In this document: positions 44,923 through 56,032 of the stretch, one piece after another
How the letters are laid out: every line of letters starts with the position of its first letter
How positions within the stretch are numbered: position 1 is the stretch's first letter
DNA from: a virus
Lineage: Duplodnaviria > Caudoviricetes
Virus record (IMG/VR): IMGVR_UViG_3300029288_004596
Location: 64,001-128,000 of that record
Length of the DNA: 64,000 bases
Strand: one strand, 5' to 3'
Program-made: the position numbers and the translations under genes
Notes under the pieces: generated by a model
What the model saw: only the letters and a program-made list of their open reading frames with translations
What the model was told of the DNA's origin: nothing
Databases searched by the model: none

Positions 44923-44990
44923 CCATTCCTCCTGTCGCTAGTAATTGCTTACTACCACACTCATCGTGGTTTTATGCTAAACCACTCTTA

Positions 44991-45446
44991 TTATATCAAG
45001 TTTTCTATGTTCTCAGCAAGTTTTTTAGGGGTGTTCCCTGACACAGCCATCCCATTATGCCACACCTCTAAATGGAGATGAGGAGCTCTGAGAAACCTGC
45101 CCACATACCCTATGCACTGTCCAGCCTTAACTGTAGCCCCAACCTTGATAGAGGGACTGACTACATGCACATGGGCATACATAATCCTGTACTCAGTATT
45201 CCTTATTAGGACTCTGCCATTCCTCCCAGAGGGCTCCATCACTTCCACAGTCCCAGCGCTCATTGCGAAAACCGGGGAGCCAGCTTTAGTATACAAATCC
45301 AGTCCATCCCCATTACGGGCTGTGTACCCCAGGAACACGTTGTGTCCAGGGACGCTGGTCTTCCTGTAAACAGATCGTCCATGTAAAGTATTGTTATACT
45401 TCAGTTCACTTATCTTCTTCTCTAGTGGTTGTCTTAACTTAGTCAT
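44991..45446 (-). CDS. M23-family peptidase (candidate lysin)
   Basis: GLDL..KAGSPVFA..AGTV, YAHV, VKAGQ.IG.VG and PHLHLEV. Confidence 0.8.
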   Translation of the reverse strand: MTKLRQPLEKKISELKYNNTLHGRSVYRKTSVPGHNVFLGYTARNGDGLDLYTKAGSPVFAMSAGTVEVMEPSGRNGRVLIRNTEYRIMYAHVHVVSPSIKVGATVKAGQCIGYVGRFLRAPHLHLEVWHNGMAVSGNTPKKLAENIENLI

Positions 45447-45499
45447 TATTTCCCTCCAGGTACGTCGGTATTCTAGAAGAATACCTCCACTTTATATTA

Positions 45500-45566
45500 T
45501 AGCCTTGGATTATGAATCCAATGGATAGCCTTGATATTACCATAGGCAATATCAATGGATAGCCTT
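45500..45566. repeat. tandem TAGCC-hairpin-TGGA elements at the divergence point of the two arms
   Basis: TAGCC TTGGATT-ATG-AATCCAA TGGA, then TAGCC TTGATATT-ACCATAGGC-AATATCAA TGGA, then TAGCCTT. A minus-strand TATAAT abuts at 45501-45496. Confidence 0.75.
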
Positions 45567-48287: not shown

Positions 48288-48431
48288 GGGGCTGTTGGTC
48301 CCTGTTAGTTTACTTACTTATATGGGGAACTCCATTGGACTGGAGTGTATTTGTGGATCTGTTCTACCCCAGGGGCGGATACCGTTTAGGGCTGGTTACT
48401 AGTCTTGCTAGTATACCAGAGGAGTGCTGAA

Positions 48432-48821
48432 ATGAAACTTATAATTGCAGGCAGTCGAGAGATCACTGAGTACGAGTTGCTCTCTAAGATCATGGTCTCC
48501 TATATGATTAGGAAAGGTTGTCTTATCAAGGAAGTAGTCTCTGGAACTGCTAAGGGAATAGATACTCTTGGTGAAAGATGGGCCCAGGAAAACTCTATCC
48601 CTGTTAAGAGATTCCCTGCTGATTGGAATAGATTTGGCAGGGCAGCTGGCTTTAAGAGGAATGAGGTTATGGGTGACTACGCTGATGAAGCTGTAGTCAT
48701 CATCCTCAATCACAGCAGAGGTTCTGAGCATATGGCTCAGTGTATGAAGACCCTTGGCAAGAGAGTTTCTGTCTGTGATGTGGTTATTAAAGATGGCAAG
48801 TACAGGTGCTCTTGGAGGTAG
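48432..48821 (+). CDS. SLOG-family (YspA/DUF2493-like) protein
   Basis: KLIIAGSR, VVSGTAKGIDTLGERWA, FPADW..GRAAG.KRN. Confidence 0.85.
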   Translation: MKLIIAGSREITEYELLSKIMVSYMIRKGCLIKEVVSGTAKGIDTLGERWAQENSIPVKRFPADWNRFGRAAGFKRNEVMGDYADEAVVIILNHSRGSEHMAQCMKTLGKRVSVCDVVIKDGKYRCSWR

Positions 48822-49205: not shown

Positions 49206-49573
49206 TGAACTTGTGTCAGGGATATGTTCCTTGATGCAAAATTCTCCATGGGAAAGTAACGGACCTCCTTTATGAGTTTCTTAAGAACTTGTGGAGGAGG
49301 ACATAGACCACTTATCAGGCGCCTTCGGCGCCCCTATTAGTCTATAGCCATAAGGTGGTGGAGGGAGAGGGAATTGAGAGTGTAGGAGTGGTCCACGGCA
49401 ATTCCCAGTGGATTTCTTAATTTCTTGTGCTTCTCCCTCTCCTTATGGTTTTTTGGGGAGAACTTCCTCCTCTCGTGCTTAACTAGAGGTGAGAGTGAAC
49501 TGACTCTTCCTCTCCCTATGTGTTCATCTGTTATGTGTTTCTTGTGCATGGTGTTTACAAAAGGAGGATTGCC

Positions 49574-50902
49574 ATGTATATCCCAGTTAAGAAAATAGAG
49601 ACTCGTGGAGGGGTCTCTACAGAAGAAGTTACTTCCACATCACTTAAAGGGTCTGTCTTTGACGGTCAAGGACAAGACTGTGTTATTAGCTTCTCTCCTA
49701 CTGATATGTTAGGTAGGACTTTTTCCTCTGTGTGTGTCCCTTGGAGTCTTAGAAGATTATCTAAGGGATTTTCTGGTAACTACATTCTCTCGCCCCTTCA
49801 GAGTTCTCTCAATGCTCTGGTAGGTGTTACTGGTCAAGGGGTTTACCCGGCTCTCTACAGGTTCATGGGAGCCTGGTTAGAAGAGATGGTTAGAACTCTT
49901 AACCGTGACCTGGGTCGTCCTAGAAATCCTAGGTCTGGTTCCTTAGTAGCTGTCCCTATGGTGGACTCTGATGTGTTTACCAGTTCCAAGTGGGGTGGCA
50001 AGTTGTCTTCTCTTAATCCCTGGCAGGTTGGGTTTAGTACAGCTGTACTAAATAAACTCAATAACTCCAGGACTAATCCTCATACAGAAGAGGGTTCACT
50101 CATGATTCTCAGCAGATTCCCAACAACTGATGTGGTGGCTGTTGAGATTAAAGAGATTCCTGGTGAGGCCTTCTGCTTGTATGTATGTCCCAACTCCTTC
50201 AGTCTAGGGGATGAGGACAAAGAGTTGCTCTTCCAGGACCTTATCGAGGGTGACTGCGATGGGGATACAGATAACTTCAATGTTGTCTCCAACCCAGCTC
50301 AGTTGCACCAGTCCATTAGTGAGATGAAGAAACAAGTGACCCCCCTTCCCCAGGAGCGGACTCCGCTGACCTGGCTGGACCATGAAGAGGATTCCCCTGA
50401 TGTCATGTCTATTGTCAGGGACAAGATAGAACAGAAGACCTGGATAGGTTCAGTGGCTGTTCTAGCTTACTGTGGATTCGCTGTCCTGGAATCCCAAGAG
50501 ACTAATATCACTCATGCTGAGTGGAGAGAATTTTATACGCATCTTGTTGAGCTGGTCATGGATAAGAAGCACAACAATAAAAGTAATCTGGCGCCCATAT
50601 ATGGTTACCTCAACCGCAGAAGAGGCGTCAGTTATGATATGGCGGCAGCTCAACTGGTAGATAAACCAGAGTTCCTGGCTACCATGACTAAGATGGATAC
50701 CCTGCTCAATGGAGAGTCCATAAGGGAAGTCGCTTCCAGAAACAAGGCGTTCAGGATAATGCACCTGAGCAGAGGAGCCAAGCTACCCCAGAAGTTTATG
50801 ATGGTGTTTGACCTCCTTGAGTCTATTCCTGACTCAGCTAATCCCCTTGAAGATATTGACGTGGTTGACCAGTTCGTGTCTAGTTTAATAAAGGAGGACT
50901 GA
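49574..50902 (+). CDS. reduced RNA polymerase beta'-like subunit (catalytic double-psi beta-barrel)
   Basis: AAGGAGG RBS. RPRNPRSGSLVAVP (cf. GKRVDxSGRxVI), ILSRFPT (cf. NRxPTL) and IEGDCDGD (cf. NADFDGD, at 50249-50266) occur in the canonical order. Confidence 0.75.
   Translation: MYIPVKKIETRGGVSTEEVTSTSLKGSVFDGQGQDCVISFSPTDMLGRTFSSVCVPWSLRRLSKGFSGNYILSPLQSSLNALVGVTGQGVYPALYRFMGAWLEEMVRTLNRDLGRPRNPRSGSLVAVPMVDSDVFTSSKWGGKLSSLNPWQVGFSTAVLNKLNNSRTNPHTEEGSLMILSRFPTTDVVAVEIKEIPGEAFCLYVCPNSFSLGDEDKELLFQDLIEGDCDGDTDNFNVVSNPAQLHQSISEMKKQVTPLPQERTPLTWLDHEEDSPDVMSIVRDKIEQKTWIGSVAVLAYCGFAVLESQETNITHAEWREFYTHLVELVMDKKHNNKSNLAPIYGYLNRRRGVSYDMAAAQLVDKPEFLATMTKMDTLLNGESIREVASRNKAFRIMHLSRGAKLPQKFMMVFDLLESIPDSANPLEDIDVVDQFVSSLIKED
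50033..50052. repeat. dispersed palindrome TTTAGTACAGCTGTACTAAA
   Basis: Perfect 20-bp copy; inside the beta'-like RNAP gene. Confidence 0.8.
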
Positions 50903-50903
50903 C

Positions 50904-52985
50904 ATGGAATTTAGGATTAAGAAAGTTAACGGAGAAGTTTTCCTTGGCGTTGAGAACCAGGGAAAAGAATATTATTCTAGGATACCTAAGGACAAGGATG
51001 GAATCGTCCTGCCTTCAGGGTCTATACCCATCTTTCGTAAGTGCGTCCTCATTGAGTATGAGGATCTCACTCCCACAGTTACCTTCTTTGGGTCAGTCGA
51101 GAAGTATCTGCTTCACAGAGTGACTGCCCCTGAGTTGCAGGGATACATAGCTAAGATAGTATCCAAGGGTAAGAAGACTGAGATTGAATCCCTTCTCAGA
51201 GGGTTGATACTTAGAGGTCTTAACGACCTTTATAAGTGTCCCACGGAGTGGGAGGAGCCGGGGACAGACTTCGAGGCTACCTCCCAGAGGTGCGCTTATA
51301 AACTATTAGATAGCAAGTTACCAATACCTCCGCGTGGCAAATACATGGCGGACGTAGTCACTGCCCATCGCATGATATTCTTGAAGTATCTGGAATCCAT
51401 AGGTGTTTCTAGGATGATGGCTACTGCCCCGGGTAATCCTGGCACAGTAGCTGATTGGTGCGCTAAGGACACTGGAATGCCAGTGTATTTGAATGTCCAG
51501 CCACTGGCGAAATACTATCATCCTAAGAGATGGTCCATTGCTAGAGGTCTTACCCATCTGGTGTCCATCAAAGGCAAGGATGACCCCCTTGTCAAGGTCC
51601 TAGAGGCGGAGGGTTATAGTCTTCCTCCCATGGCGAACGCCAACGTTATCTGTCCTGATATGGGGTTAGATGACGCAGTCATAGTATCTGAGTCCTTTGC
51701 AAAGAAACTCCAGACTGCGTATGACGAAGTGCATACGCACACTCTGGATAATCTTATAAACTGTCGAGCTGGAAGAAAGTTAGTCCGCTCCCAGACAGGG
51801 ATGAAGATACCTGGTTATTTCAGGTCTCTATCTGCTGACCTGCATTCAGATTGCAGAGAGATATGGATAGAGAAGCACGGGTCTAAGTGTCCAGCCATGA
51901 TTAATAGAAAGGAACAGTTCCTGAAGTCTCACACTGAGGCGGAGTGGGAACTTAACCATGGAGACCAAAGTCCTGAAGCATGGCACAAGTATAGCCTATG
52001 GCTGAAGAACTTCCAGCCATTCCATAACTATAAGCAGAGGTGGAATCCTCTGAACCAGCCAGTCAGGCGGAGGTTCGTTGACCGCATTGACAGGTTGGTA
52101 GTTGAGAGTGAGGGCGGTCGTTCCGTCCTCTACAAGGAATACCATGGGATAACAAAGAAGCCTCTCATGGATGGAGACAAACTTCAATCAGAGGCTGACT
52201 TGTTTAAGGGAGTGTGCAAGATACTCCCGGACGAGTCAATGCCTCTCATCAGATATAATGACAATACTATAGTCAGAGCTGATATAGTGGCTGACATGGG
52301 GAATAGCACTAAGAAGCACAGTTCTCTGAAGCTAGCTCATCTGACTCTGGTTACCAATAAGGTATGCCAGGGTCTGACAATGACATGTGTCAACCCACTA
52401 GCTCATGCGACTACCAAGTATCTTGAGAGGAGACAGTTCTTAGAGGAGACCCTTGAGTCTTTTGAGGAACTCATAGCTGACCATTTGCAGACAGTTGATG
52501 TGGATGACCCCTGTTCCTCTGAGGAACTGGACTTTATCCATGGGGTAAGTTCCCAAGTTAATATACTGAGAGATGACATTAAGTCTCTCATAGATTGGCT
52601 ACCTGAAAGACAACCCAGTTCCCTAGTCAAGAGAGCTATGTCTTCAGGGATATACTTTGATGAGTCTCTCACCTGTGAAATGATAAGTCCCGATGGTTCT
52701 CACCTAGGGTGTTTCCCAGCAGGAATCATCCGGGTTGGGAGACACAGACAGGATTCCCAGGTTGTAGGTGGAGTTGTTGGAGACCTAGGCAAGAAGCCTA
52801 GGAAGAACAACTTGAAGAACAGCGGCAAGAGGGATGGCTTCGTTGAGACAGTCATCCAGAAATCCTTCGGCTTTATAGATGCCGCTAAGGAGTTAAGGAG
52901 AACTGATCCCAAGGCGGCGGCTAAGGCCAGAGACCTAGCCAAGGTGTTCTCCACATCAGTTCCACTGTATACTGAGGCTGAGTAG
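50904..52985 (+). CDS. reduced RNA polymerase beta-like subunit
   Basis: GLDDAVIVSESFA (cf. NxEDAxxxS), DGDKLQSEADLFKGVCKILPDESMP (cf. GDKxxxRHGxKGVxxxxxxxEDMP), ADIV, GRHRQD (cf. LxHxVDDK) and SGKRDGFVE (cf. GGxRFGEME). Confidence 0.8.
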   Translation: MEFRIKKVNGEVFLGVENQGKEYYSRIPKDKDGIVLPSGSIPIFRKCVLIEYEDLTPTVTFFGSVEKYLLHRVTAPELQGYIAKIVSKGKKTEIESLLRGLILRGLNDLYKCPTEWEEPGTDFEATSQRCAYKLLDSKLPIPPRGKYMADVVTAHRMIFLKYLESIGVSRMMATAPGNPGTVADWCAKDTGMPVYLNVQPLAKYYHPKRWSIARGLTHLVSIKGKDDPLVKVLEAEGYSLPPMANANVICPDMGLDDAVIVSESFAKKLQTAYDEVHTHTLDNLINCRAGRKLVRSQTGMKIPGYFRSLSADLHSDCREIWIEKHGSKCPAMINRKEQFLKSHTEAEWELNHGDQSPEAWHKYSLWLKNFQPFHNYKQRWNPLNQPVRRRFVDRIDRLVVESEGGRSVLYKEYHGITKKPLMDGDKLQSEADLFKGVCKILPDESMPLIRYNDNTIVRADIVADMGNSTKKHSSLKLAHLTLVTNKVCQGLTMTCVNPLAHATTKYLERRQFLEETLESFEELIADHLQTVDVDDPCSSEELDFIHGVSSQVNILRDDIKSLIDWLPERQPSSLVKRAMSSGIYFDESLTCEMISPDGSHLGCFPAGIIRVGRHRQDSQVVGGVVGDLGKKPRKNNLKNSGKRDGFVETVIQKSFGFIDAAKELRRTDPKAAAKARDLAKVFSTSVPLYTEAE

Positions 52986-53169: not shown

Positions 53170-53448
53170 ATGGAAACGGAACCCATTCATCCATATGAAA
53201 AGATGAAACTGATAGCTGAGGCTTTGATGTTTCATCCTAGAGATAGGAAAGTCACTATCCTGGGAGAAGAAGCCAAGGTGGAATACACTGGCGATCCTGA
53301 CACCTTGAGGTCCCTGAGTTTTCAGGGTTACGTGGCTATTCAGGGCCATAACCCCTTTTGTGTGAGAGTCTTCACTCCCATCAATCGCAGATTCTATGTG
53401 GAGTATGACCCAGACAAAGATTCTTTCCGGGTGTCCCCAGCCGATTAG
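53170..53448 (+). CDS. hypothetical protein
   Basis: AAGGAG RBS. Confidence 0.6.
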   Translation: METEPIHPYEKMKLIAEALMFHPRDRKVTILGEEAKVEYTGDPDTLRSLSFQGYVAIQGHNPFCVRVFTPINRRFYVEYDPDKDSFRVSPAD

Positions 53449-53456
53449 AGAAAGGG

Positions 53457-53873
53457 GTGTCACTAATGAAAGTATTCAGACCGCAATCCTATAAGCACAC
53501 TTCTTATGGTCTGGATGGCATTGAGTTGCCCTCCGGGCATGGGGAGTCTGTCACTATCAAGGGTTACGTCCTTAAAGACAGGGATGGAAATCTTGTCACT
53601 ATAGAAGTGTATGAAGATGACAGCATGCCTATCATCTCCTTTATGTCAGTTACTTACAGCGGAGTAGTTGAACCGGAACAAGGCAATCCTGTTGTAGCTT
53701 TGGCTAACGGGAGCGCCTGGTCTGGCGGCAGAAACTACACAGGTTTTCTTGTAGGTAGACTGGGAGATAGGGTCTGCTTTTCCCGCAAGGGTGATAGGAC
53801 TAGGTATGAGGTTACTGAGAACGGATGGGAGGAACTTCCACCCATGCCCAGTGGCAATGCAGTTATTTACTAG
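53457..53873 (+). CDS. hypothetical protein
   Basis: ORF in the operon; start at 53457 or 53466. Confidence 0.55.
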   Translation: MSLMKVFRPQSYKHTSYGLDGIELPSGHGESVTIKGYVLKDRDGNLVTIEVYEDDSMPIISFMSVTYSGVVEPEQGNPVVALANGSAWSGGRNYTGFLVGRLGDRVCFSRKGDRTRYEVTENGWEELPPMPSGNAVIY

Positions 53874-54007
53874 CGCTCTTTGACCACACTTAGTGGACTG
53901 CCCTTCCCGTCCAGCAGTCTACTAACCTTTTCTCTTTGGACGAGCGTCCCGCTGACCGTCGAATCTCAAAGCATACTATATTTCAGCGGGGCAAGAGAGG
54001 TGTTACG

Positions 54008-54541
54008 ATGGCTAAGAAAGTGTTGCTGGAATCAGCGGATGTTGCTGAGACTTCAGCAGAACAGGTGACTGAGGCTATAGCTGAAGTTGTTGTGTCGGCT
54101 CCAGTCAAGAATCTTCCCCAGACAATGGGTGAACTGGATTGGTTCACCGCCCCTCCAGCGGGTGGTGGAAGAGAAGCTTGGCTCAACGAGAACTCTGACT
54201 TTAAGGCGGAGAATGAGCTTGGGACCTTCTGGTTCCGCGTTCAGCCTGACAGACAGGCCTTCAGCTGTAACGTAGACTTAGCGTGTGGAATCAAATTGTC
54301 TGATCTATACGTTAAGAAAACTCCAGGTGGCTTTTACTGGGCCCTTGGAGACCAGGCTTCCTTCAAGTCCTTTGAAGATGGAACCGAGTTTAGAACGGAG
54401 AACTATCTTCAGAAGCGGCTTGTCCCAGCGACAGCTGATGGTAGCAAGCCTGAGAGGGAAGTGCCAGCCATTCTGTGGAATGTGTCCGCTTTCATAAGGG
54501 ATGTGTTAATCCCCATGGGAGCTGAGGCGCGCAAACTCTAG
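54008..54541 (+). CDS. hypothetical protein
   Basis: GAGG RBS before MAKKV; followed by the hairpin ACCCGCC-TTCAT-GGCGGGT. Confidence 0.6.
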   Translation: MAKKVLLESADVAETSAEQVTEAIAEVVVSAPVKNLPQTMGELDWFTAPPAGGGREAWLNENSDFKAENELGTFWFRVQPDRQAFSCNVDLACGIKLSDLYVKKTPGGFYWALGDQASFKSFEDGTEFRTENYLQKRLVPATADGSKPEREVPAILWNVSAFIRDVLIPMGAEARKL

Positions 54542-54712
54542 CAAATGACCCGCCTTCATGGCGGGTTACCCCTTTGAATAACTCCCCACATCCATGGGTT
54601 TACTCCTTTTTCCCATGGATGCGTTATACTATACTGGGCGTAGCCCAAACTGCGCCTTATTTGGGGTAGGAAACTACCCCACTTTTTTAAACCTGTGGGT
54701 TCGGGAGGACGT

Positions 54713-55039
54713 ATGTCAGTAGCAAAAAGATTTGGCAGAGCTCTTGGTTCTGCAAGTTCTATGAAAGTAAAAGAGTTAGGTCCAGGGGCTGTTAATTTAT
54801 TAGGTTCTCTGGCAGATTCTGTTAATAAAGTCAAGGAAGATTTCCTTGAGGGATACAGAGTATCCAAACCAGTGTCTGTTATGGCTGGAGCAAACCACAG
54901 AGATGTGGAGTTGTTCTTCCAGACTATGGAGAAGTATAAAGACTCTGAGGAGTTGGAACAGAGGCTCCAGTTTCTGGCTGAAGCGGTTGGGTTTACTCCA
55001 GAGCAAGTGGAATTCTTAAAATCCATAGAGGAGGACTAG
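54713..55039 (+). CDS. hypothetical protein
   Basis: GGAGG RBS before MSVAK. Confidence 0.6.
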   Translation: MSVAKRFGRALGSASSMKVKELGPGAVNLLGSLADSVNKVKEDFLEGYRVSKPVSVMAGANHRDVELFFQTMEKYKDSEELEQRLQFLAEAVGFTPEQVEFLKSIEED

Positions 55040-55041
55040 CT

Positions 55042-55308
55042 ATGGAGACAGTGTCTATATGTATTACTGTTCGCGGTAAACTTGTTCCTTTTCGTGGTCT
55101 GGCTGGGACTAAGGAACACCCTATAGAGTTGTCAGACTCTACTTATAGAGTTCATCCATATGATAGATTATATGAGGTGAAGATGGCTGATGTTGATTCC
55201 TACGTCCAGTGGAATGGAATGGGTCCATTCATCCTAGACAGGATCACTCTTGTCATGGATGAAGGCTACGATAAGAACGTCATTACTATTGAGGGGCATG
55301 GATTATGA
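55042..55308 (+). CDS. hypothetical protein
   Basis: Coupled to the previous gene; GAGG RBS. Confidence 0.55.
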   Translation: METVSICITVRGKLVPFRGLAGTKEHPIELSDSTYRVHPYDRLYEVKMADVDSYVQWNGMGPFILDRITLVMDEGYDKNVITIEGHGL

Positions 55309-55435
55309 ACTACAAGGGACTCATAGGTAGTTCTGTCTAGTTGTCCTGAGGATATCTACGGGTTCATTTATAAGTTTCCTCAGCATGTGAGGCATGAATA
55401 TTATAATAATGCTCTTAGGATTTATAAGGAGATTA

Positions 55436-56032
55436 ATGGTGAAAATTTATACTGATGGCGGATACTCCCACTCTCAAGACATGGGGGCTTGGGCCTACGT
55501 TACTGAGGATGAGAAGTTTGCTTCTGGCGTTGTTGTTAGGGCTGCTAGTCATAACATAGACTGTGAACTTTTTGCTATAGTCACTGCCCTGAATACTTAT
55601 CCGGATGCTGATATTTATACTGACCTTCAGGGAGCGGTCAAGTGGGCCACTGGGGAGTGGAAGACTGCCACTCCAGTCACTCAGTCCTATAAGAATCTAG
55701 TAGCCAGTAGGGCTAGCCAGATTCACTGGATCAAAGGACACAGTGGGGATATTCTTGGAGAGGCGGCCCATAGACTAGTCCAGAAAGTTTTGTCTGGACA
55801 AAAGGAACCCACTTCCAAGGTGGATGTGGCTGAGTGTATTCCAACTAGATACTCCAGACTGAAGGCTATAGTGGAGTTCATGGCTTTTGCTGATATTCAT
55901 ATTAAGAAGCCAGACTATGATATCCTTGAGTGGCTGGCTGACTATGGCATGGATGCTGACTGTGCTACGAAGGAGTCTGTTCCTGAGGAAAGTGAACTGA
56001 TACTTGAGCTGGCTGAACTTGTAAAGGGCTAG
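55436..56032 (+). CDS. ribonuclease H (RNase HI family)
   Basis: KIYTDGG, GAWAY, N..CELFAI..AL, IYTD and WIKGHSG. Confidence 0.85.
   Translation: MVKIYTDGGYSHSQDMGAWAYVTEDEKFASGVVVRAASHNIDCELFAIVTALNTYPDADIYTDLQGAVKWATGEWKTATPVTQSYKNLVASRASQIHWIKGHSGDILGEAAHRLVQKVLSGQKEPTSKVDVAECIPTRYSRLKAIVEFMAFADIHIKKPDYDILEWLADYGMDADCATKESVPEESELILELAELVKG

What the first reader, a model, noticed from the sequence alone, without database searches (positions are those of the whole stretch)
49574..52985. Minimal two-gene, two-barrel RNA polymerase (beta' 442 aa + beta 693 aa) in a myovirus-type phage
Seen: two translationally coupled ORFs. The first has R-x-P (SRFPT) followed about 45 aa later by GDCDGD, the Mg-binding DxDGD loop. 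The second has DD-AVIVSES, GDK...KGV...SMP, DIV, RH and GKRDG..E in the order found in cellular beta subunits. Known: these are the conserved active-site residues of double-psi beta-barrel RNAPs. Cellular beta plus beta' total well over 2,000 aa, phiKZ-type enzymes are split into four or more chains, and YonO/crAss-type enzymes are single chains. Inference: at about 1,135 aa in total, in beta'-then-beta order, with no alpha or sigma recognisable nearby, this is a strongly reduced and divergent phage RNAP. It is encoded in the early arm and probably transcribes the oppositely oriented 45-kb virion operon. The small downstream genes (53170-55308) are candidate specificity subunits.
Basis: partly seen in the sequence, partly recalled or inferred. 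Interest (0 to 1): 0.9.

Follow-up and report, generated by a model that had tools for sequence, protein, structure and literature searches.

The report
Compact two-gene phage RNA polymerase
A 217-kb uncultured phage encodes a stripped-down version of the cell's own type of RNA polymerase in two adjacent genes; it belongs to an unannotated family whose sister branch joins the two halves in the opposite order to the single-chain enzymes I found described, but which phage genes it transcribes is still open.

Summary
Confirmed as a two-barrel RNA polymerase. ORF1 (442 aa) and ORF2 (693 aa) carry all eight universally invariant catalytic residues. They fold as beta'/Rpb1 (Z 12.7) and beta/Rpb2 (Z 19-22.5), and model as a complex (0.82 against 0.00 controls). 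The beta'-then-beta pair recurs in nine other loci. A sister clade fuses the two into one 930-1045 aa chain with beta' first, the reverse of YonO, QDE-1, gp66, gp64/gp96 and Orf6. Structurally it is a reduced member of the cellular/phiKZ branch, not YonO-like, and it is not the smallest two-barrel enzyme known. The claim that it transcribes the virion operon is doubtful. The genome encodes three sigma-70-like factors outside the window. Late-strand genes are headed by a TATAAT-type motif. The sigma-binding flap is replaced here and deleted in the fused relatives. Most likely it is a sigma-independent, non-virion enzyme for part of the early/middle arm, perhaps with a roughly 200-aa partner that travels with it in relatives. 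The scan noted the same pair before on another genome (e1-5642988, e1-5643008). New variant of a known kind; activity untested.

The parts
49574..50902 (+). beta'-like subunit (442 aa): short N-terminal clamp remnant, switch 2, catalytic barrel (residues about 118-240), bridge-helix-like helix and helical C-terminus
49922..49936 (+). Invariant R117 to S121, at the switch-2 position leading into the barrel (assignment inferred)
   Evidence: lies in the modelled interface
50114..50122 (+). R181-x-P183 motif (Rpb1 R446/P448 equivalent)
   Evidence: invariant in 18 homologues; PMC2919709
50252..50266 (+). Mg-binding loop D227-C-D229-G-D231
50402..50569 (+). 31-residue helix 277-307 (bridge-helix-like, Q287/K288 conserved), then helix 314-333 with invariant E326, D330, K332 (trigger-helix position; inferred)
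50892..50906 (+). Coupled junction: RBS of ORF2 inside ORF1, stop codon, one base, start codon. Fused relatives join the two chains here.
50904..52985 (+). beta-like subunit (693 aa): shortened N-terminal lobe region, fork/hybrid-binding region, second barrel, switch 3 and C-terminal helices
51672..51674 (+). D257 (Rpb2 D837 equivalent)
51711..52163 (+). Flap position: long beta-hairpin stem carrying a helical bundle where cellular beta has the sandwich-barrel flap. Almost wholly deleted in fused relatives (D-to-first-K distance 169 aa here, 34-41 aa there).
52179..52208 (+). K426 and K435 (Rpb2 K979/K987 equivalents)
52743..52838 (+). H614 and the switch-3-like G641-x-R643-x-G645
54008..54541 (+). 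177-aa candidate third subunit or factor. Homologous to a gene beside the L001 polymerase; its link to the partner family of L011-L013, L020 and L021 is not shown.
55394..56032 (+). RNase H, a recurrent neighbour (L001, L003, L010, L020); may belong to a general early-gene cluster
45488..45501 (-). Candidate late promoter TATAATAW-N1-2-AGTG at the head of the minus-strand block
44983..44995 (-). Second copy of the candidate late promoter
49206..49573 (+). Strongly structured 370-nt non-coding leader of the polymerase genes (z = -5.7); not an Rfam family; relatives have only short gaps here

Best explanation
The two proteins assemble into one DNA-dependent RNA polymerase. The barrel of ORF1 holds catalytic Mg with D227/D229/D231 and places R181; the barrel of ORF2 supplies D257, K426 and K435 for the incoming NTP. 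Motifs, folds and fusions are shown computationally and activity is inferred (about 0.92 for this part). It is a non-virion enzyme, expressed very early from the head of the plus-strand arm by host polymerase (inferred: no second copy, location 4 kb into the arm). It has no alpha and no normal flap, so it probably cannot use the phage's three sigma factors. It most likely finds its start sites without sigma, through its own helical insert and/or a roughly 200-aa partner, and transcribes part of the early/middle arm. The virion block is read mainly by host core polymerase with a phage or host sigma at TATAAT-type promoters (inferred, about 0.5).
For: All eight residues invariant in two-barrel polymerases (PMC2919709) are present and conserved. 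AF2 models have pLDDT 84.9 and 77.9. Top structural matches are Rpb1/beta' (Z 12.7, 349 aligned, rmsd 5.2) and beta/Rpb2 (Z 22.5, 342 aligned, rmsd 3.6; next unrelated row 5.5). The beta profile hits AR9 nvRNAP beta at E 1.5e-8 and Thermus beta at 5e-4. Complex score 0.82 against best control 0.00; the mark was reached by 58 of 80 solved and 2 of 110 mismatched pairs; runs agree in at least 83% of contacts; partner pLDDT at least 81; D227-G230, D257, K426 and K435 are all in the interface. That pass may reflect likeness to solved polymerases. Natural single-chain fusions exist. Switch 2 is present, which PMC2919709 ties to DNA templates. Sigma genes. Late motif: 7 copies on the late sense strand, 0 antisense, 5 outside long ORFs. 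Flap deleted in the fused clade.
Against: No promoter motif specific to the plus-strand arm was found. The late motif was defined by eye, so its enrichment (7 against a simulated 0.17) is inflated, and it is not enriched in the two related genomes (2 copies each). AT-rich motifs near -10 are also used by phiKZ-type phage enzymes (PMC7598289). The helix pair 74-114 may be a clamp coiled coil able to bind sigma region 2. The window's candidate partner gene could not be linked to the conserved partner family.
Confidence: 0.5

Rival explanations
1. One reading: the same enzyme is the late polymerase. It is made early and then transcribes the minus-strand virion block, recognising the TATAATAW..AGTG motif alone, with a small partner, or with a phage sigma bound only through region 2.
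For: Non-virion two-barrel enzymes of phiKZ and AR9 transcribe late genes (PMC7598289). The beta profile's best solved match is AR9 nvRNAP. The motif has no consistent -35 element, which would suit an enzyme without a flap.
Against: The motif core is exactly the sigma-70 -10 hexamer and two copies have a near-consensus -35 at 17 bp. Three sigma factors are encoded; group 1 jumbo phages, which run on their own polymerases, encode none, whereas sigma-encoding jumbo phages are thought to use host core (PMC7824862).
Confidence: 0.28
2. The enzyme mainly makes RNA primers or R-loops for replication initiation. With little lid or flap it would leave RNA hybridised to the template, and the neighbouring RNase H would process the hybrid for the phage PolA.
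For: RNase H lies close by in the window, L003 and L010, and directly upstream in L001 and in the fused locus L020. The enzyme lacks much of the RNA-exit apparatus. The phage encodes PolA.
Against: RNase H was not seen in several other loci. It sits among DUF488, NADAR and SLOG genes typical of early clusters. The phage already has a Toprim primase-like gene. No origin was identified.
Confidence: 0.12
3. Not a working DNA-dependent RNA polymerase: an RNA-templated enzyme, a decoy that sequesters host transcription factors, or a decayed remnant.
For: Language-model features of ORF1 weakly recall Pfam RdRP clusters (score 0.80, below the reliable range). The cellular trigger-loop signature is not recognisable in sequence.
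Against: Catalytic residues are retained across sequences only 16-37% identical. Switch 2 is present. The beta fold is far closer to DNA-dependent enzymes (Z 19-22.5) than to gp66 or gp96 (4.3).
Confidence: 0.07

Closest known systems
Non-virion RNA polymerases of phiKZ and Bacillus phage AR9 (PDB 7ogp, 7s00; PMC7598289)
   Same: Phage-encoded, no alpha or omega, cellular-type barrels. AR9 beta is the best profile hit (E 1.5e-8) and shares the flap-stem motif; structural Z 19.9 and 19.0. They need a non-sigma fifth subunit, a role the 200-aa partner gene might fill.
   Different: Four core chains there, two here. No separate beta N-terminal or beta' C-terminal gene was found. No second, virion paralogue. 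The flap barrel is replaced by helices. This phage encodes sigma factors and PolA, unlike group 1 jumbo phages.
Cellular multi-subunit RNA polymerase (beta, beta'; Rpb1, Rpb2) and mReC phage enzymes (PMC7481178)
   Same: Two catalytic chains with one barrel each and the same eight catalytic residues; top structural hits for both chains.
   Different: 1,135 aa in all. No Pfam or PHROG hit for either chain, whereas mReC enzymes were found with COG0085/0086 profiles. No alpha found. Gene order is beta' then beta.
Single-chain two-barrel enzymes: YonO (PMC5467207), QDE-1, phi14:2 gp66, P23-45 gp64/gp96, P74-26 gp62 (bioRxiv 2022.12.01.518664)
   Same: Small, alpha-free two-barrel core; bridge helix and first trigger helix kept; ORF1 matches QDE-1 (Z 9.2) and gp96 (Z 8.7).
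   Different: Those chains run barrel B, connector, barrel A. The fused relatives here run A then B. The beta model matches gp66 and gp96 only at Z 4.3. Some of them are smaller than this enzyme.
Reduced derivatives of the cellular enzyme: yeast plasmid pGKL2 Orf6 (982 aa), baculovirus LEF-8/LEF-9, Corynebacterium NCgl1702 (PMC2919709)
   Same: Heavy loss of peripheral domains with barrels and switch 2 kept; LEF-9 (495 aa cluster) appears among the Atlas structural neighbours of ORF1.
   Different: Orf6 and NCgl1702 are beta::beta' fusions, the opposite order. LEF-8/9 work with p47 and LEF-4 in insect viruses. No sequence-level relationship was tested or seen.

Membership tests
Two-barrel polymerase superfamily | Eight invariant residues (three Asp, Arg, Pro on barrel A; Asp and two Lys on barrel B) | tested here: met
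   R181, P183, D227, D229, D231; D257, K426, K435
Two-barrel polymerase superfamily | Two double-psi beta-barrels | tested here: met
   Model ranges 118-240 and 243-616 match isolated barrels and polymerase subunits
Two-barrel polymerase superfamily | Barrels meet to form one active site | tested here: met
   Predicted only: 0.82 against control 0.00, catalytic residues in the interface (may reflect likeness to solved complexes); natural fusions
Two-barrel polymerase superfamily | Template-dependent nucleotide polymerisation | not testable with these tools
   Needs purified protein
Cellular-type (multi-subunit clade) RNA polymerase | beta-type architecture around barrel B (lobe, fork, hybrid-binding, switch 3) | tested here: met
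   Z 19-22.5 over residues 1-622; Foldseek E 1.5e-12
Cellular-type (multi-subunit clade) RNA polymerase | Sandwich-barrel (SBHM) flap inserted in barrel B | tested here: not met
   Confident model (pLDDT 84-95 over 311-370) shows helices at that position; the segment is deleted in fused relatives
Cellular-type (multi-subunit clade) RNA polymerase | alpha subunits, full clamp and beta' C-terminal module | tested here: inconclusive
   No PF01193, PF04997, PF04998 or PF04563 match in the genome, but these profiles also miss the two known chains and the record is 93% complete
phiKZ/AR9 (group 1 jumbo phage) RNA polymerases | beta and beta' each split into two or more genes | tested here: not met
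   ORF2 spans cellular beta from about residue 75 to the C-terminal region in one chain; ORF1 carries barrel, bridge-like helix and C-terminus in one chain
phiKZ/AR9 (group 1 jumbo phage) RNA polymerases | Two paralogous sets (virion and non-virion) and no sigma factor | tested here: not met
   One beta copy, one DxDGD in the genome, three sigma-like genes
phiKZ/AR9 (group 1 jumbo phage) RNA polymerases | gp68/gp226-type fifth subunit | not tested
   No profile search for it was run; the partner-gene family has no solved or Pfam match
YonO / RdRP / gp66 / gp64 single-chain clade | One chain, barrel B before barrel A | tested here: not met
   Two chains here; fused relatives have barrel A first
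YonO / RdRP / gp66 / gp64 single-chain clade | Barrel B surroundings of the QDE-1/gp66 type | tested here: inconclusive
   Only Z 4.3 to gp66 and gp96 against 19-22.5 to cellular beta; a weak match does not exclude kinship
mReC phage RNA polymerases | Near full-length beta and beta' detectable with cellular profiles | tested here: not met
   No Pfam hit at E up to 1 for either chain; lengths 442 and 693 aa

The most novel reading that the evidence does not exclude
This family is an undescribed lineage of cellular-type RNA polymerase reduced to two chains plus one small dedicated non-sigma initiation factor. It has discarded the flap and, in a sister clade, fused into a single chain in the reverse (beta'-then-beta) order. 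It runs its own promoter class alongside host polymerase reprogrammed by phage sigmas, and would show that the beta/beta' clamp connector and the flap are dispensable for a cellular-type enzyme.
Probability: 0.4. Interest if true: 0.85.

Novelty: new variant of a known kind. Interest (0 to 1): 0.68.

Why it matters
It gives a natural deletion series of the cellular transcription engine: two chains with a helical flap substitute (this phage), and one chain of about 930 aa with no flap and reversed barrel order (sister clade). A two-gene or one-gene enzyme on the cellular branch is easy to express and would test which parts of the multi-subunit polymerase are needed for initiation, elongation and RNA displacement. 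The reverse fusion bears on how often and in which direction the two barrels were joined or split in evolution. It also shows that sigma-encoding jumbo phages can hide their own polymerase below the reach of Pfam and PHROGs, against the published picture that such phages lack one (PMC7824862).

Tried and rejected
Single-sequence Pfam, PHROG and PDB searches found nothing for either chain; the signal appears only with profiles and folds. No relative among 50,697 GenBank phages, nor in GTDB genomes with the patterns used, so no host could be named. Acinetobacter phage ME3 has a 798-aa protein with a beta-like predicted fold but did not match the family profile: treated as unrelated. Further polymerase subunits were sought in the genome and not found. 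Profile comparisons between the three groups of roughly 200-aa neighbour genes were not significant, and my guess of a SpoVG-like fold got no support. Genes 53170, 53457, 54695 and 55042 have no homologues beside related polymerases. Sigma-70 consensus sites around the locus are at chance level (16 found, 17.7 expected). No plus-arm-specific promoter motif emerged. The tree is the quick version, unrooted, with no outgroup, so the direction of fusion or fission was not determined. Literature searches found no description of this family or of a beta'-first fusion; the library lacks most subscription papers, including the 2012 Iyer and Aravind survey.
Full report
Observation. Each has an AGGAGG ribosome site, and the second lies inside the end of the first gene. 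ORF1 has R181-x-P183 and, 46 residues on, D227-C-D229-G-D231. ORF2 has D257, K426, K435, H614 and a switch-3-like glycine motif in beta order. These match the eight residues invariant in all two-barrel polymerases (PMC2919709). DxDGD occurs once in 89,501 residues of six-frame ORFs of the whole genome, so this is not chance.

Context. The window is part of a 216,899-bp virus record with tail sheath, capsid, portal and terminase. The genome has two arms: about 118 kb on the minus strand (virion and glycosylation genes) and about 98 kb on the plus strand (small early genes through to replication genes). The polymerase pair lies 4 kb into the plus arm. Outside the window are three sigma-70-like genes (G000 149209, 173646, 207694), PolA and a Toprim protein. 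There is one copy of the beta gene and no detectable alpha or further subunit pieces (weak test).

Identity. Single sequences hit nothing in Pfam, PHROGs or PDB. With homologues the picture is clear. The beta profile hits AR9 non-virion beta at E 1.5e-8 and Thermus beta at 5e-4, and the beta' profile ranks Rpb1/A' chains first, though weakly. AlphaFold models have pLDDT 84.9 and 77.9. ORF1 matches Rpb1/beta' chains (Foldseek probability 1.0; Z 12.7, 349 aligned, rmsd 5.2) and isolated barrels over residues 118-240. ORF2 matches beta/Rpb2 at Z 19-22.5 over residues 1-622, with the next unrelated fold at 5.5 and gp66 and gp96 at 4.3. So this is a reduced enzyme of the cellular/phiKZ branch, not a YonO type. 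The complex model scored 0.82 against a best control of 0.00 (mark reached by 58 of 80 solved and 2 of 110 mismatched pairs; contacts agree at least 83%; partner pLDDT at least 81), with the aspartate loop, D257, K426 and K435 all in the interface. Such textbook pairs can pass by likeness to solved structures, so this supports binding but does not show it.

Family. A search of 1.84 billion representatives gave 29 hits. The beta'-then-beta pair recurs in L001, L002 (near-copy L019), L003 and L010-L015; two of these are 211-213 kb virus records. A second group are single chains of 930-1045 aa: in P0015, residues 17-391 align to the beta' family (E 1.9e-16) and 456-930 to the beta family (E 2.2e-43). 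Nine fused proteins form one side of a branch with support 100 (quick unrooted tree). The fusion independently shows the halves work together. Its order, barrel A first, is the reverse of QDE-1, gp66 and gp64/gp96, and of Orf6, NCgl1702 and Helicobacter. I found no paper describing it, within a library that lacks most subscription journals. The scan's first readers noted the L003-type pair before.

Anatomy. ORF1 keeps only about 115 residues before switch 2, and after the barrel a 31-residue helix and a helix ending in invariant E326/D330/K332, which I read as bridge helix and first trigger helix (inference). In ORF2 the flap position holds a hairpin stem with a confidently modelled helical bundle instead of the sandwich barrel that binds sigma in cells (PMC7824862). 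In fused relatives this segment is gone: 34-41 residues separate the aspartate from the first lysine, against 169 here. An 80-residue low-confidence insert (493-571) is largely peculiar to this copy. 'Minimal' is relative: gp62 (592 modelled residues), the gp96 active fragment (327-1124) and Orf6 (982 aa) are smaller.

Partners. A gene of about 200-240 aa sits directly upstream of the split enzymes in L011-L013 and directly downstream of the fused enzymes in L020 and L021. These are homologous (E down to 6e-16), so the gene followed the polymerase through fusion and reordering: a good candidate for a dedicated factor. In the window the positional candidate is 54008-54541, homologous to a gene near the L001 polymerase (hhalign E 1e-4), but its link to the conserved family was not significant. 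The other small downstream genes have no homologues near relatives. RNase H is a frequent neighbour.

Which genes? The motif TATAATAW-N1-2-AGTG occurs eight times, all on the minus strand, seven in the late block, including its head at window 45501 and 44995; five of the seven lie outside long ORFs, 23-73 bases before a ribosome site and start codon. I defined it by eye, so the enrichment is overstated, and it is not enriched in two related genomes. Its core is the sigma-70 -10 hexamer, two copies have a near-consensus -35, the phage has three sigmas, relatives also carry sigmas, and the enzyme lacks a normal flap. No promoter for the enzyme itself was found.

Verdict. Observation confirmed; interpretation right on what it is (about 0.92), unproven and probably wrong on what it transcribes. 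It works like the core of a cellular or phiKZ-type polymerase but fails the membership tests for the phiKZ/AR9, mReC and YonO-type families. New variant of a known kind; interest 0.68.

Noticed in passing
window 1899, 16165, 22856, 30895, 32516, 41036, 48823, 50036, 57260; whole genome: The palindrome AGTACAG(N0-1)CTGTACT has 26 perfect and 11 one-mismatch copies spread over the genome, one inside ORF1. It is absent from the related loci, so it is not tied to the polymerase family (lead from e1-5674647).
   Followed up: partly
window 49206-49573: The non-coding leader of the polymerase genes folds far better than shuffles (-145.6 kcal/mol, z -5.7), with a long hairpin followed by a U run; possible attenuator or small RNA; no Rfam match.
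   Followed up: partly
G000 149209-149694, 173646-174368, 207694-208347 (outside the window): Three sigma-70-like genes; the third lies on the minus strand at the far end of the late block.
   Followed up: partly
L020:12946-13596, L021:6242-6844, L011:1920-2642, L012:5831-6493, L013:205-879: Unannotated 200-240 aa family with a conserved W...DH..G.xR motif always adjacent to these polymerases, split or fused.
   Followed up: partly
loci of P0009 (L012), P0015 and P0016: Split and fused polymerase loci share a downstream SSB, 209-aa protein, AAA ATPase cassette; the L012 SSB and 209-aa protein have homologues in this genome, suggesting related viruses.
   Followed up: no
window 48405-48821 and 55394-56032; L001-L003, L010, L020, L021: SLOG/YspA, RNase H, DUF488 and NADAR genes cluster around the polymerase in many loci; RNase H is fused to DUF488 in L010.
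   Followed up: no
Acinetobacter phage ME3 (KU935715), UniProt A0A172Q0S6: An uncharacterised 798-aa protein matches the beta model (E 8.6e-9, TM 0.37) but not this family's profile: possibly another hidden two-barrel polymerase in an isolated jumbo phage.
   Followed up: partly
G000 174821-178199 (L006): JAB-like and ThiF/E1 genes lie directly after a sigma gene; also noted by the scan as a ubiquitin-like operon.
   Followed up: no
P0023 residues about 203-208: One fused relative has DTDGE in place of DxDGD.
   Followed up: no
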